Assembly: GCA_951406725.2 (NCBI GenBank)
Contig: OX597815.1
Location: 161,882,001-161,946,000, forward strand
Origin: Octopus vulgaris
Taxonomy: Eukaryota
Direction of reading: 5' to 3'
Length of the DNA stretch: 64,000 nucleotides
In this document: in pieces, positions 14,843-53,635 of the stretch
Position numbering within the stretch: the stretch's first letter is position 1
How the letters are laid out: the number at the start of each line of letters is the position of its first letter
Translations under genes and position numbers: made by a program
Notes under the pieces: generated by a model
What the model saw: the letters and a program-made list of their open reading frames with translations, nothing else
Told to the model about the DNA's origin: nothing
Databases searched by the model: none

Positions 14843-14940
14843 TCTTTGCTGACGAGACAGGCCAGTAGCAAATAGATTTAATTTAATTTAATTAAATCGG
14901 TTTGCCTAGATGTATGTCGAAACAATGCATAGTCCAAAGA
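14843..14940 (+). ncRNA. Type I hammerhead ribozyme, intact core, long stem II
   Basis: ucuuug-CUGACGA-gaca[55 nt]uguc-GAAA-caaugcauag-UC-caaaga. Six-bp stem I and a GUC cleavage triplet. Lies in a (TA)n-flanked module. Confidence 0.8.
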
Positions 14941-15097: not shown

Positions 15098-15156
15098 TAC
15101 TAATCTGTGACAAAAAATTCAACAAAAAAAGTACTCCATCTGGTGAGAGAGAAATT

Positions 15157-15360
15157 TTTATTTAAAGGTCACAATACATGTATTAAAGTGCTACTAATAG
15201 TTTCATATTTTGAGAGAACTCAAACGTAATCTTCAGGTGCAAATCAATTTCTTTAGTTCATTATGATATGTGGCTTGCACCTGAAGAATATGTTTGAGTT
15301 CTCTCAATATATGAAACTATTATTAAAGCTTTAATACATATATTGTGATCTTCAAATAAA
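15157..15360. mobile_element. Fold-back repeat with a hammerhead motif in each arm
   Basis: 15157-15242 is the reverse complement of 15275-15360. Each arm has CUGAAGA-[uugag uucu cucaa hairpin]-GAAA-cuauua(g)-UA. Confidence 0.65.
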
Positions 15361-15781
15361 CAATATATATATTTATGTATCATGGGCTTCTTTCAGTTTC
15401 CATCTACCCAATATCTGTAGAAATTGTTTGGTTACTGAGCTAAGCACATTTTAACATTTTTTATCATCCTACTAAATATTGGTTAGCCTGGAGCTATAGT
15501 AAAAGACACTTGACCACACAGTGGGACTGAACCTGAAACCATATTGTTGCAAGACGAACTTTATACCACACAGCCAAGTTTGCACCTATATATTTTTTTT
15601 ATTTGTCAGTTTTACAACCATTTCCCCATTCTAACATACAATTAAGGTGTTGCTTTACAGTCAAATGCTTTCAACGCAGTTGCAAACACATGCTTTACAA
15701 AAAAGGGCTGTTATTTATTCCACTTGTCTTTGAAAGTGCATTATTTTCTCTGCACTTTTTTGAAAGGAATCTCAACAATTA

Positions 15782-47639: not shown

Positions 47640-50470
47640 ACTGATTTCACCTTCCTCATGAACCTTCCTGCTGGTGTATTCAGATGTCACCCCATACACT
47701 CTTAAGAATTGCTGTACAGTGACTTCATCTGTAACTTTCTTGTTTGCTTTTCTCAAAGCTCTTTTAAAAATGTCCACAAAATGCTCTGACTGTCCATTTG
47801 ATTTGGAATGGTAAGGCATTATCATTTTATGTTCTACCTTGAACATTTCACAGAATTTTCTAAATTCACTAGACACAAATTGTGTTCCATTAATCAGATA
47901 CAATCATGTCTACGAGGCCAAATCTTGTGAATAATTCGTGCAAAAAATTTATTACTGTTTTAGAGGTTGGTCTTTTGCACTTAACAATTTCTGGCCATTT
48001 TGTAAAACTGTCAACTGCAACTGAGTAGTAATAACCATTTAAGGCAGCGAGCTGGCAGAAATGTTATCATGCCAGGCGAAAAGCTTAGCAGTATTTTGTC
48101 TGCCATTACGTTCTGAGTTCAAATTCCACTGAGGTCGACTTCGCCTTTCATCCCTTCGGGATCAATAAATTAAGTACCAGTTACGCACTGGATCGATGTA
48201 ATTGACTTGATCCCTTTGTCTGTCCTTGTTTGTCCCCTCTATGTTTAGCCCCTTGTGGGCAATAAAGAAATAAGTAATAACCATTTAACAGACCTGGAAA
48301 ATCAGTATGTAGTCTCAACCATGGACTTTTTACTTTTGGCCAGGACTCCCATTTTTTGGTAGGCAATTTCACAGCCAGAGCACATCCTCTGCAGCTTTTA
48401 CTACGTTTTCAACTTCCTTGTCCATCTTCAGCCAATACACATAACTGCACATGAGTGCTTTCGTCCTTTCGATCCCCAGATGTCCAATATGGAATTCTTT
48501 CAGTATACCATCATATATTGAATTTATGTTTACCTGTTGCTGTTTTTTCTTACCAAACCTACTTTTATTTTCTTTAGCTGACCACAGAGTTTTTCTGTTT
48601 CATTAATGAACTTACCTTTTGATGCGTTTCATTTTATCTCCTCCAGAATTACTGGTTACTCCCGAACAATGTTTCACATTATGTGTTTAAGTTCCCCTTC
48701 AGATTTTAGGGCTGTTATTACTGTGTCCTCAAATGGTTTGCCATTTTTGGGTATTAATCTGGATAGGCTGTCAGCATGTCCTAGCTTTTTCAAAGGTAAA
48801 TATTTCATTGTGTATTCATAGTTTAGAAGTATGGTACCCCATCGCTGGAACCTGTTTGCTGTATGTACTAGGATTCCTCTCTTGGATCCATAAATCGTTA
48901 GCAATGGGTGATGGTCTGTTTGTAGTATAATCTGTCTACCATGTATAAACCTGTAGAACTTTTTTATACCAAATATAATCACCAATGCCTCTTTTTCAAT
49001 TTGGCTGTAATTTTTTCACACTGGCAATAGTGTCCTTGATGCATGAGCTATGGCCTTTTGGCTGCCATCTTTACATTTGTGTAGGAGTATGGCACCTACC
49101 CTGTACTCACTAGCATCTGTTGCCAGCATCATTTCCAACTTCAGATAAAAGTGTGTAAGTGACAAATCTGAATTTAACATGCTTTTTAGTTCCTCAAATG
49201 CCTTCCGGCATTTTTCTGACTAAAACCATTTGGCATCCTTTTTAACAGCTCATTTAGTAGAGCCCTTGTGTTGTGTATGTCCGGGATATATCCTTGATAG
49301 TAGTTTACCAATCCTAAAAATACTCATAACAATTTGACATTTGTTGGGGGAGGCATATTCTATATTGCCATCACCCTTGATGGGTCTGGCCTTTATCCCC
49401 TTTAATCAATTTCTTGACCTAAATATTTGATTTTTTTCATAAAAACTCACACTTTTTCTCTGTTAGTTTAAACCTGTATTCATTTATTTTTTCAAATACT
49501 TTTTTAATATGTTCAAAGTGTTGCTCCACTGACTCACTCTTTATCAAAATATCAAGATAAGCAATAACGAAATCACAATCAATTAACATTGCATCCATCA
49601 CTTGTTGGAATATGGCAAGTGCCACTTTTACTCCAAAACGAAGCCACTTGAATTTATATAATCCACGATGTGTGTTGATTGTTAAAAGATGTGCACCATC
49701 TTCCTCCACCTGTATCTGTAGATAGGCCTCTGAGAGGACTAACTTTGAAAACATTTTTCCTCCATTTAGTTTTGAGAACACTTCTTCTGGGCTTGGTAAT
49801 GGATAGTTGTGTTTGACTAAGCAGTCATTTAATCCACACACACTCTTAGTTTTTTTTTTTTTTGTTTCTTTACACATACTGTCAGAGCTGCCCAGTCTGA
49901 ATGGTCAACTTTTTCAATTATATCTAGACTATCTAGTCTTTCCAGCTCTTTATTGACATGATCTAACACTGCAAATGGTATGTTTCATTTGGGCCTAAAA
50001 GCAGGTGTTACCTTTTCTTTTACTGCAATCCTCATTTTTGTTTTAGTGCAACAGCCTAATCCTTCCCCCCCCAAAAAAACACTTGGAAACAATTTAAAAA
50101 TTTTTTGTCTCTTTTGTTCACCTTCATTCGAACTTTTAACCATACCGACTACATTTTCACAGAGAACACTAATGGGAGTATCCCACATTTTAAATAACTC
50201 CATGCACTCTGCGCCAAATAGGCTTAGTGATTTTTCCAACACATAAATGATTGTCCTTTTGTTTCACTTCAGAAAGTTACATTGCAAATACATTCACCAA
50301 TGGAATATAGTTTCTTTTCTGTAACACAATATACTACTTTATTTGATTTAAATAATTTTGGCTCACCAATTTGTCGCCATGTTTCTTCATTTATGATACT
50401 AATAGCACTACCCGTTTCTAATTGCATTTTGACAGTTTCAATTTTCACTTTGACAAATTTTCTGTTCATT
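47640..50470 (-). pseudogene. pol: pol (protease, RT, RNase H, integrase), frameshifted
   Basis: MQLETGS (decayed LDTGS), YPLPSPEE..FSKL..AYLQI..TINTHRGLYKF..FGVK..YLDI, ATDASEYRVGA, YSQIEKEAL, TDHHPL, HIGHLG..YVYW, WLRLHTDF, NGTQF..PYHSKSNGQSE. Confidence 0.95.
48043..48272 (+). mobile_element. SINE family B inserted in the Gypsy integrase
   Basis: 16-bp target-site duplication agtaataaccatttaa at 48027-48042 and 48273-48288. Confidence 0.92.
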
Positions 50471-51380
50471 GTATATAAACTTTTTTCTCTGATGACAAAC
50501 TATTTATTTTTTCTTGTCTGGTCCAATTTTCTGTCTTAGTTCTGCAGTGCGATTTAATGTGACCTGTGTTCCCACAATGAAAACACTTTGCTTCTTTGAA
50601 TCGACACTCTTTTCTCGGGTGCCTACATAGGTTTATCTCCTGTTGTATATCGTATTTTTTGTGAAACACTTAATCCATCTTCCGACTCTTCTACACTGAT
50701 TTTATCTGTAAACAATCTCTGCGTTGGATTTCTTCTGTGTTGTGCCTTACTTTTAATATCATATCGCACGCTTCTGACAGCTTCTGGAGATTATATCCGG
50801 GGTCATTTCCAACTTTGCGAGAATTTTTGTTCTGACTTCTATGTCCTTTTTAGCAGTAAGTCCCTGAACAAAATTCAGGCACCTGAATGAGTCTGGATTT
50901 AGTTTATCCAGTTTAAATCTCTTGCACTCTCTGTTCGCTCTACCCACACATGTGGTAAAGTCTTCATCATCACTTTCTCAGTGTTCAAACACTTCCAATG
51001 TGCTATGTTTTATCACTAAGCATTCTACATAAAATGTCAATTGTGTCCATGAAATTTACGTCAGAAACATTTTTAGGCAATATAAAGTTACAGTTTCCTC
51101 AGAACAGATGTTTTCATTTCGTCTATCCAGTCTTGGCATTCTTTTTCGAAAATTTGTTCAAATCTTCTACAATATGCCTCAAAAATGACTCCTTCTTATG
51201 TTTCATATCTAAATTCATTTATTGAATTTGCCACATCATCTGCTGAAAACGTATTTTCTGGTTTTGTTACCAACTTCATTAGTTGTAGCATTTGTTGATG
51301 TAACATTTGTTGTTGTTCTTTGAATTGTTACTGTTTGTCGTTTTTGCAACTCAACTAGAATCTCTAACGAATTTTCCATA
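50470..51380 (-). pseudogene. gag: gag with CCHC zinc knuckle, frameshifted
   Basis: HPRKECRFKEAKCFHCGNTGHIKSHC and FRCLNFVQGL..EVRTKILAKLE. Confidence 0.85.
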
Positions 51381-51534
51381 ATTTTACAAATTTTTTGTAA
51401 AATATGTACAACAAAATTATTTGTTACTCCTCTGTTTTTTATCAATGTCATCTGCTTAAATTGTTTTCCCATGAATAAACAATTTTTTTTTTTCCAACGT
51501 TGTTCACTTGAATTGTTTATGTCCATGTCGCCAC

Positions 51535-51829
51535 TGTTATGATGTGGATCCTCATTCACTCGTATGTTGCTGTCGGCATCGTAATATTCGTGTCACCACA
51601 TTTATGTTGTGGCAGTATTCCACTTATTATCTTTGACTCATCTATTGTGCCTTTGCTGGTACTCTGCAAGACAATGACATTGAAACATCTACCTAGACAT
51701 TAACTCAAACTCTTATATATAAGGTAACTAACACTGACTCCAACTGAGAACTCATACAATGACTCTACTACAATTGAATTCCTATAACGACTGACCATGT
51801 GACTTCATATTGACCACTTTGCCACTACA
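51535..51829 (-). repeat. 5' LTR of the Gypsy element
   Basis: tgttatgatg...cactaca, preceded on the plus strand by catgtcgccac (primer-binding site on minus). Confidence 0.9.
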
Positions 51830-52418: not shown

Positions 52419-52503
<85 letters not shown>

Positions 52504-52506
52504 ATG

Positions 52507-52545
<39 letters not shown>

Positions 52546-52671
52546 ATGTATGTATATATATATATATACATACTCGCTCTGACACTCGCTTTGGCTCGCT
52601 CTGACACTGAGTTGAGATAATGCTTTCTAGTATCTCAAAATTTAATATACAATTATTCATAATTATAGTAT

Positions 52672-52763
52672 CCTACGCTGATGAGAAAAGAAGTTTGGGT
52701 AAGGTAGAATTTTCTAATTCTTATGCTTTCCTAAAACTTGATTTTGAAACGTACGTCCGTAGG
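52672..52763 (+). ncRNA. Type I hammerhead ribozyme, fully canonical
   Basis: ccuacg-CUGAUGA-[61-nt stem II hairpin]-GAAA-cguacg-UC-cguagg. Perfect 6-bp stem I, palindromic stem III and GUC triplet. Confidence 0.88.
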
Positions 52764-52953
52764 TAACTTAAAATTGTATGATAGATTGCCGTCATTTCAT
52801 TCTTTCTTACCTGTCTGTGTTTGCCTTTCAAGTGCTGTGTTTTTACTGAGATCTCCCTTTTAGTAGAAAGAATAGCTATAACTCTTTGACTGCTATTTCT
52901 AAATTCGGTGTGTGGTGAGGCAATTCGTTGCTAAACCCTTAATTGCTTAGTAT

Positions 52954-52999
<46 letters not shown>

Positions 53000-53002
<3 letters not shown>

Positions 53003-53630
53003 TAATAGTTATCGCCATACTAATATGGCAGTCTATAAATAAGACTAAAGCTGTCACTGATTAGCTCAAAGAGGCCATCGCCTCTAGAGGTCTTCGAACA
53101 GGGGAGGTCAGCCGCTTCACCTAGCTAAAGGTGATGGCCTCTTGAAGCTAATCAGCGACAGCTTTAGTCTTATTTATAGACTGCCATATTAGTATGGCGA
53201 TAACTATTAATATCCAGTAACACTGCCGTAATCTCCTTTAGAGAGACTTAGTAATTTTAATATTTCTATTATTGAAAACAAGTGGGTGTGTTCCACTGTA
53301 ACTAGGTAAATAAAATCTTCAAACAGACGGTCAGTAGCGACACCTGCTGGTTCTGACTACGCTGCATTGATAAAGGGCAACAATCCTGAAACATGTCTGC
53401 AGATGTCTGACTAGCAAGGTGAAGCGGCTGACCTCCCCTGTTCGAAGGTTGTAATGGACGCAGGTTCGTGTGTCATATAGCTAGCTAGAGGCGGTGGCCT
53501 CTTGGAGCTAATCAGCGACAGCTTTAGTCTTATATTTATAGACTGCCATATTAGTATGGCGATAACTATTAATATCCAGTAACGCTGGCGTAATCTCCTT
53601 TAGAGAGACTTAGTAATTTTAATATTTCTA
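53000..53630 (+). mobile_element. Retrozyme-like or non-autonomous Penelope-like element, ~360-bp unit
   Basis: 53121-53268 recurs at 53481-53630 (offset 360-362). An inverted partial copy lies at 53000-53122. One hammerhead per unit; (TA)n flanks. Confidence 0.75.
53362..53402 (+). ncRNA. Minimal type I hammerhead ribozyme, U3-A8 core variant
   Basis: cugca-UUGAUAA-aggg[caacaa]uccu-GAAA-caug-UC-ugcag. Confidence 0.75.
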
Positions 53631-53635
53631 ATATA

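What the first reader, a model, noticed from the sequence alone, without database searches (positions are those of the whole stretch)
52672..52763. Fully canonical hammerhead, the best candidate for current activity
Seen: every core nucleotide is intact, with perfect stem I (cctacg/cgtagg, extended by agt/act), a long stem II hairpin, a perfect palindrome cgtacg as stem III and a GUC triplet. Four CpGs are retained in a CpG-poor window, suggesting youth or constraint. Known: such palindromic stem III motifs cleave efficiently as dimers. The predicted cut is after 52757.
Basis: partly seen in the sequence, partly recalled or inferred. Interest (0 to 1): 0.75.

Follow-up and report, generated by a model that had tools for sequence, protein, structure and literature searches.

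The report
Solo, mutated copy of hammerhead retrozyme
This self-cutting RNA motif sits in one stranded, truncated copy of a young jumping repeat with over a thousand copies in the genome, and it carries a rare change at a conserved base pair, so it is likely a passive offspring of a known kind of element rather than the best candidate for activity.

Summary
The type I hammerhead is real: stems, core, palindromic stem III and the cut after 52757 are as described. It is not fully canonical. Position 11.1 (52745) is U, not C; only 8 of 1,078 family matches carry that change, likely a decayed CpG. The motif lies in a solo, 5'-truncated 369-bp piece of a ~583-bp protein-free repeat (at least 1,865 matches) inserted in (TA)n. 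Siblings form tandem arrays and head-to-head arms with two fixed 3' ends, the insertion signature of Penelope-like elements. This is a new member of the animal non-LTR retrozymes. A natural tandem folds freely into a double hammerhead; the solo copy misfolds and would need a partner in trans. Tandem siblings with C11.1 are better candidates. One lead: 394 of 941 family cores read CCGAnGA (U4C), and those loci are more often tandem (21 of 54 vs 7 of 83; confounded by subfamily). The scan found sister retrozyme families in this genome before, including a CCGAUGA one. No cleavage, transcript or circle was shown here.

The parts
52588..52956 (+). Solo, 5'-truncated copy of the repeat: positions 1-369 of the 583-bp unit of L025; ends at the first of the family's two fixed 3' ends
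   Evidence: 96% to the L025 unit; 97-99% to the top genome matches
52573..52586 (+). 14-nt duplication of 52595-52608 at the 5' junction, likely template slippage at the end of reverse transcription
   Evidence: sequence; cause inferred
52667..52677 (+). Stem I 5' strand (52672-52677) with internal loop (52670-52671) and extension (52667-52669)
52678..52684 (+). Core C3-A9, canonical U4 form
   Evidence: 547 U4 against 394 C4 matches in the genome
52685..52745 (+). Stem II: 4 bp, 2x2 internal loop, then a long interrupted hairpin
   Evidence: compensatory changes at pairs 10.2 and 10.3
52745..52745 (+). U11.1 in place of the family's C11.1 (G-U wobble; lost CpG)
52746..52757 (+). G12-A15.1, palindromic stem III/loop 3 (52749-52756) and GUC triplet; predicted cut between 52757 and 52758
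   Evidence: palindrome duplex -9.8 kcal/mol
52758..52768 (+). Stem I 3' strand, unpaired U1.7 (52764) and extension
52419..52572 (.). TA/TG microsatellite, left flank of the insertion
52957..53002 (.). (TA)n tract at the 3' junction, as in nearly all family ends

Best explanation
The motif is a type I hammerhead inside a solo, truncated copy of a young, dispersed, protein-free ~583-bp repeat, which is likely a non-LTR retrozyme copied into (TA)n tracts by a Penelope-like enzyme, and this copy is likely a passive offspring with a weakened ribozyme. Shown: family size, unit, tandem and head-to-head arrays, two fixed 3' ends, TA targets, compensatory changes in stem II, the rare U11.1. Predicted by folding: tandem units form a double hammerhead through the 8-nt palindrome; a lone unit does not. 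Inferred: multi-unit source loci are transcribed, cut to ~583-nt monomers and probably circularised by a host ligase; a Penelope-type RT/GIY-YIG protein nicks (TA)n and starts reverse transcription inside the RNA at unit position ~366 on one strand and ~469 on the other, running across the ribozyme site. The window copy is one arm that stopped after 369 nt and later lost C11.1 by CpG decay. It cannot give a unit-length RNA or circle, and would cut only in trans or slowly.
For: Family: 1,865 exact matches to a 3' motif, 1,078 to the ribozyme 3' half. Tandem periods 568-591 bp, up to 6 same-strand ribozymes in one array. 3' ends: 87 of 143 at unit 340-380 and 40 of 143 at 440-480, nearly all followed by TA repeats. 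Of 66 two-arm loci among 127, 51 have one end of each class, 1 has two of the first, none two of the second. In 40 loci picked by the 3' motif alone, 26 of 62 arms cross the cut site, 12 exceed one unit, and 2 begin within 3 nt of the cut. No Met-started ORF above 49 aa in the unit. G10.1-C11.1 in 33 of 33 ribozymes of that sample. Pairs 10.2 and 10.3 change on both sides in 7 and 5 of 30 rows. The L025 tandem folds unconstrained into a double hammerhead. Window monomer: P(10.1-11.1) 0.55 against 0.97-0.98 in two siblings; active fold costs 3.9 kcal/mol. The 8 U11.1 copies lie on three different stem II backgrounds; in 2 of them a neighbouring unit keeps C. Intact Penelope-type ORFs (784-aa frames, 99-100% alike, GIY-YIG hit) with two 3' ends 32 bp apart, TA targets and inverted copies exist in the genome. 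The same signature is described for PLEs (PMC8557442, passages) and internal dual initiation was shown in vitro (PMC11167929, parts 1-2 of 4).
Against: No autonomous element with a homologous terminal repeat was found: the two PLE families examined give no significant match to the unit. G-U at 10.1-11.1 is still a pair; two window ribozymes co-fold as a double hammerhead (-56.6 against -49.8 kcal/mol for the monomers), and natural ribozymes with even a U-U mismatch there are reported (PMC3088659, section 8), so this copy may cut. I found no measured rate for G10.1-U11.1. Rfam does not recognise the motif. Arms that cross the cut site fit an uncleaved multimer as well as a circle. In PMC11167929 ribozyme mutants did not affect insertion in vitro, and in the 2026 preprint only 1 of 9 predicted dimers cleaved. 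Unit-to-unit differences within arrays (1-5) are not smaller than between some loci (0-1), so copying from a single molecule is not shown.
Confidence: 0.8

Rival explanations
1. This locus is an active, locally useful ribozyme: it cuts a host or read-through transcript at 52757.
For: 13 core letters intact, U4 form, stems I and II formable; dimer fold still predicted with U11.1; family RNA, if abundant, could supply a trans partner.
Against: U11.1 is rare and not amplified (8 of 1,078); solo copy; monomer misfolds; older than most sampled siblings; no host gene was evident among the window's ORFs.
Confidence: 0.08
2. The unit is simply the terminal repeat (pLTR) of an autonomous Penelope-like element, and all copies are truncated products of that element.
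For: PLE insertion signature; hammerheads are typical of pLTRs (PMC4209133, parts 1-2 of 4); retrozymes are reported as related to pLTRs.
Against: In the sampled loci, arms longer than one unit continue into another unit, not an ORF. The only adjacent PLE ORF (L036) lies beyond a TA junction. Sister families at about 70% identity are also short ORF-less units.
Confidence: 0.08
3. The family spreads on uncleaved tandem transcripts and the ribozyme is a hitch-hiker with no role in mobility.
For: 394 of 941 cores carry U4C, a change reported to lower activity considerably in vitro (PMC3088659, passage); few arms start at the cut; ribozyme dispensable in vitro for a PLE.
Against: Core, stem I and palindrome are kept across subfamilies 76-97% alike while stem II changes compensate; U11.1 never amplified. 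These changes are few events on a tree, counted over many copies.
Confidence: 0.2

Closest known systems
Animal non-LTR retrozymes (PMC7229834: passages and sections 14, 17; bioRxiv 10.64898/2026.07.22.740005: parts 1-3 of 5)
   Same: Type I hammerhead in each tandem unit, no ORF, low GC (36%), many solo copies, PLEs in the same genome, short palindromic stem III that favours dimers as in axolotl.
   Different: Unit ~583 nt against 170-400 nt in PMC7229834 (within 51-972 bp of the preprint); 61-nt stem II; dispersed head-to-head arms with two fixed ends; a large U4C subfamily; expression and circles not shown here.
Penelope-like elements and their pLTR hammerheads (PMC4209133 parts 1-2 of 4; PMC8557442 passages; PMC11167929 parts 1-2 of 4)
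   Same: Partial tandems, inverted 5'-truncated arm, two alternative 3' ends, (TA)n targets, hammerhead upstream of the 3' end.
   Different: No RT/GIY-YIG frame; the two ends lie ~100 nt apart against the 30-40 bp tail; ribozyme has canonical 6-bp and 4-bp helices rather than the minimal PLE form.
Newt, axolotl, Schistosoma and Dolichopoda satellite hammerheads (PMC7229834, PMC2837043 passages)
   Same: Canonical geometry: 6-bp stem I and 4-bp stem II each followed by a loop; unpaired U1.7 as in extended hammerheads (PMC11875169 passages); dimer cleavage.
   Different: Loop 2 is an internal loop of a long hairpin; copies are dispersed insertions rather than long satellite blocks.

Membership tests
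Type I hammerhead ribozyme | Core C3 U4 G5 A6 N7 G8 A9, G12 A13 A14 A15, U16, H17 | tested here: met
   definition from PMC3088659
Type I hammerhead ribozyme | Pairs next to the core formed (1.1-2.1, 10.1-11.1, 15.1-16.1) | tested here: met
   C-G, G-U wobble, A-U
Type I hammerhead ribozyme | Conserved G10.1-C11.1 pair | tested here: not met
   G-U in this copy; G-C in 1,070 of 1,078 family matches
Type I hammerhead ribozyme | Structure supported by compensatory change | tested here: met
   pairs 10.2 and 10.3; few independent events
Type I hammerhead ribozyme | Match to an Rfam hammerhead model | tested here: not met
   the long stem II is a likely cause (inference)
Type I hammerhead ribozyme | Self-cleavage 3' of C17 | not testable with these tools
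   needs in vitro transcription or RNA ends
Non-LTR retrozyme | Tandem units, each with a type I hammerhead | tested here: met
   family; the window copy itself is solo
Non-LTR retrozyme | No protein-coding capacity | tested here: met
   longest Met ORF 49 aa
Non-LTR retrozyme | Expressed as unit-length linear and circular RNA | tested here: inconclusive
   only contigs of runs guessed to be RNA were available
Non-LTR retrozyme | Active element by the preprint's criterion (two consecutive complete ribozymes) | tested here: not met
   window copy has one; met by siblings such as L025, L193, L210
Penelope-like element, autonomous | RT plus GIY-YIG frame | tested here: not met
Penelope-like element, non-autonomous | Partial tandem, inverted arm, two 3' ends, microsatellite target | tested here: met
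Penelope-like element, non-autonomous | Homology to the terminal repeat of an identified helper | tested here: inconclusive
   none in two PLE families examined; other families not surveyed

The most novel reading that the evidence does not exclude
The family is a natural experiment in ribozyme tuning: a derived, weaker U4C core (394 of 941 copies) lets the RNA template survive longer, so a Penelope-type enzyme writes longer arrays from two fixed start sites ~100 nt apart, one on each strand of a TA cut. Selfish selection would then favour slower self-cleavage.
Probability: 0.2. Interest if true: 0.6.

Novelty: new member of a known kind. Interest (0 to 1): 0.3.

Why it matters
The locus itself matters little: it is one decayed copy among more than a thousand. 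The family adds a cephalopod-type example (organism inferred, not given by a call) of animal retrozymes, with an insertion footprint that supports the proposed Penelope route. It also offers matched natural variants (U4 or C4, C11.1 or U11.1, solo or tandem) for testing how cleavage rate affects spread. I saw no cephalopod retrozyme in print in two searches or in the main text of PMC7229834; supplements were not read and may list one. This scan had already noted sister families.

Tried and rejected
Rfam: no hammerhead match. Expression: no RNA holder listed; contigs of four runs guessed to be RNA cover the unit but show no strand, level or ends, and no silent control stretch was laid, so nothing is claimed. 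In one search the U allele at 52745 is absent from X1 and X16 contigs and a small share in X15 and X17; that table omits common family variants, so absences were not used, and an assembly error at 52745 is not excluded. Helper: the 8-kb periodic copies on C8 are a segmental tandem duplication without a long ORF; two intact PLE families share the footprint but not the sequence; 30 loci of a sister family led to no helper (output partly cut). Single-template test: inconclusive. Linear monomer as main template: 2 of 62 arms start at the cut, not favoured. CpG retention as proof of constraint: rejected. Two classic papers on U4C and on stem II were not held; the U4C effect is taken second-hand from PMC3088659. 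Samples: L002-L030 and L031-L090 were chosen by likeness to this ribozyme; L091-L102 were hand-picked and left out of the tandem tests; duplicates L022 and L024 were dropped; one search uses only the first 100 listed matches of 394 and of 547.

Full report
Observation. The sequence at 52672-52763 holds a type I hammerhead: stem I CCUACG/CGUAGG, core CUGAUGA, a 61-nt stem II, GAAA, and GUC with the cut after 52757. The palindrome is ACGUACGU, 8 nt. A strict descriptor finds this motif and one at 14849 in the window, and none in 100 simulated windows of the same dinucleotide make-up. The 92 nt fold with z = -2.07. Rfam finds no hammerhead.

The motif is not fully canonical. Position 11.1 (52745) is U. 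The window's 27-mer occurs once in the 2.8-Gb genome, the C form 254 times. With a looser pattern, 8 of 1,078 matches have U, on three stem II backgrounds. In 40 loci chosen by a 3' motif outside the ribozyme, 33 of 33 ribozymes in 18 loci have G10.1-C11.1. PMC4209133 (parts 1-2 of 4) calls this pair highly conserved; PMC3088659 (section 8) calls it the most conserved pair after 15.1-16.1 but reports natural ribozymes with U-U there. I found no measured rate for G-U. The change removes a CpG, so CpG decay is the likely cause. Four CpGs in 92 nt occur in 99 of 1,390 windows; the element as a whole has CpG o/e 0.73 against 0.35, which fits a young family.

What it belongs to. The ribozyme lies in a repeat spanning 52588-52956 between two TA tracts. 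The best 40 scored candidates of 1,568 are 97-100% alike. Siblings show a 583-bp unit; the window holds positions 1-369 only. Periods range from 568 to 591 bp. A 3' motif has 1,865 exact matches. The unit is 36% GC and has no Met ORF above 49 aa. This copy differs from its nearest sampled relative at 3 of 287 positions, while 89 of 119 pieces have a closer relative and 36 an identical one (sample biased towards this subfamily).

Insertion footprint. Of 143 3' ends, 87 fall at unit 340-380 and 40 at 440-480, nearly all running into TA repeats. Among 127 loci, 61 have one arm and 66 have two head-to-head arms; 51 of the 66 have one end of each class. In the unselected sample 26 of 62 arms cross the cut site, 12 exceed one unit and 2 start within 3 nt of the cut, so the template was uncut or re-joined. 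Partial tandems, an inverted arm, an optional tail and microsatellite targets are described for PLEs (PMC8557442, passages). Two internal start sites and cleavage of both strands were shown in vitro for one PLE (PMC11167929, parts 1-2 of 4). The genome holds young intact PLE frames with a GIY-YIG domain and the same footprint, with ends 32 bp apart, but their ends do not match the unit. The helper is not identified.

Ribozyme mechanism. As a monomer, stem III has 2 bp and is barely formed (P 0.001-0.004 in three copies); the active fold costs 3.9 kcal/mol in the window copy, and P(10.1-11.1) is 0.55 against 0.97-0.98 in siblings. The natural tandem in L025 folds without constraint into a double hammerhead with an 8-bp stem III. 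Two window ribozymes also co-fold that way in trans. So the dimer idea holds for the family, as for axolotl retrozymes (PMC7229834, passages), but the window copy has no partner in cis. Across 30 distinct rows, pairs 10.2 and 10.3 change on both sides in 7 and 5 rows, and N7 varies; these are few events. U1.7 is unpaired and invariant in that alignment, next to where extended hammerheads make a loop contact (PMC11875169, passages); the contact is inferred only. Predicted activity is uncertain: 1 of 9 predicted dimers cleaved in the 2026 preprint.

U4C lead. 394 family cores read CCGAnGA and 547 CUGAnGA. The diverged subfamilies have U4, so C4 looks derived. U4C is reported to lower activity considerably in vitro (PMC3088659, passage; primary paper not held). 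C4 loci are more often tandem: 10 of 49 against 2 of 49 in fetched loci (p 0.028) and 21 of 54 against 7 of 83 among the first 100 listed matches of each. Within one stem II background it is 18 of 36 against 2 of 13 (p 0.047); within the other 3 of 18 against 4 of 54 (p 0.36). Copies share ancestry and exact patterns miss older units, so this is a lead, not a result.

Expression. No run is on record as RNA. Contigs of runs guessed to be RNA cover the unit but cannot show strand, ends or circles.

Comparison and novelty. It works like, and by structure belongs with, animal non-LTR retrozymes (PMC7229834 sections 14 and 17; preprint); the expression criterion is untested. Searches showed no paper on a cephalopod retrozyme; supplements were not read. 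The scan's earlier notes describe sister families of 359-495 nt in this genome with the same two-arm footprint, one with a CCGAUGA core; none matched this sequence. I had found the two ends before reading them; the two-arm tally and the editing test came after.

Verdict. A real hammerhead in a decayed solo copy of a new retrozyme family of a known kind. Interest 0.3.

Noticed in passing
window 14844-14939 (+): Second type I hammerhead with CUGACGA, intact G10.1-C11.1 and palindromic stem III, in a short insert between TA tracts; 73-79% like another family with ~493-bp tandems (L060, L068, L080).
   Followed up: partly
window 357-315 (-): Minimal hammerhead-like motif: CUGAUGA, 4-5-bp stem II, GAAA, UA triplet, 4-bp stem I; no relative among fetched loci.
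   Followed up: partly
window 53000-53212 and 53412-53634: 213-nt near-perfect hairpin element (-148 kcal/mol) and a rearranged second copy, flanked by TA tracts; also in L003 and L017; MITE-like.
   Followed up: partly
L071:3400-4061, L145-L174: Sister families about 70% like unit 275-470, with the same two 3' ends; their hammerheads show an extra mismatch beside stem II (A-A or C-A).
   Followed up: partly
L103-L144: Two young intact Penelope-type families (784-aa frames, 72% alike), TA-targeted. No canonical hammerhead found; one has a UUGAAAA ... GAAA motif that may be the U3-A8 variant (read by eye).
   Followed up: partly
family copies L002-L102: Private non-CpG changes on the sense strand: T>C 38, C>T 28, A>G 13; the T>C excess is unexplained.
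   Followed up: no
window 48674-51592 (-): Broken LTR-retrotransposon-like frames (RT and RNase H motifs, recalled) just upstream.
   Followed up: no
L091-L093: An ~8.1-kb segmental tandem repeat, at least four units at 99%, that carries one family insertion per unit.
   Followed up: partly
window 15150-15370: Two diverged inverted copies of a short sequence with CTGAAGA ... GAAA but no stem I pairing; possibly a decayed two-arm insertion.
   Followed up: no
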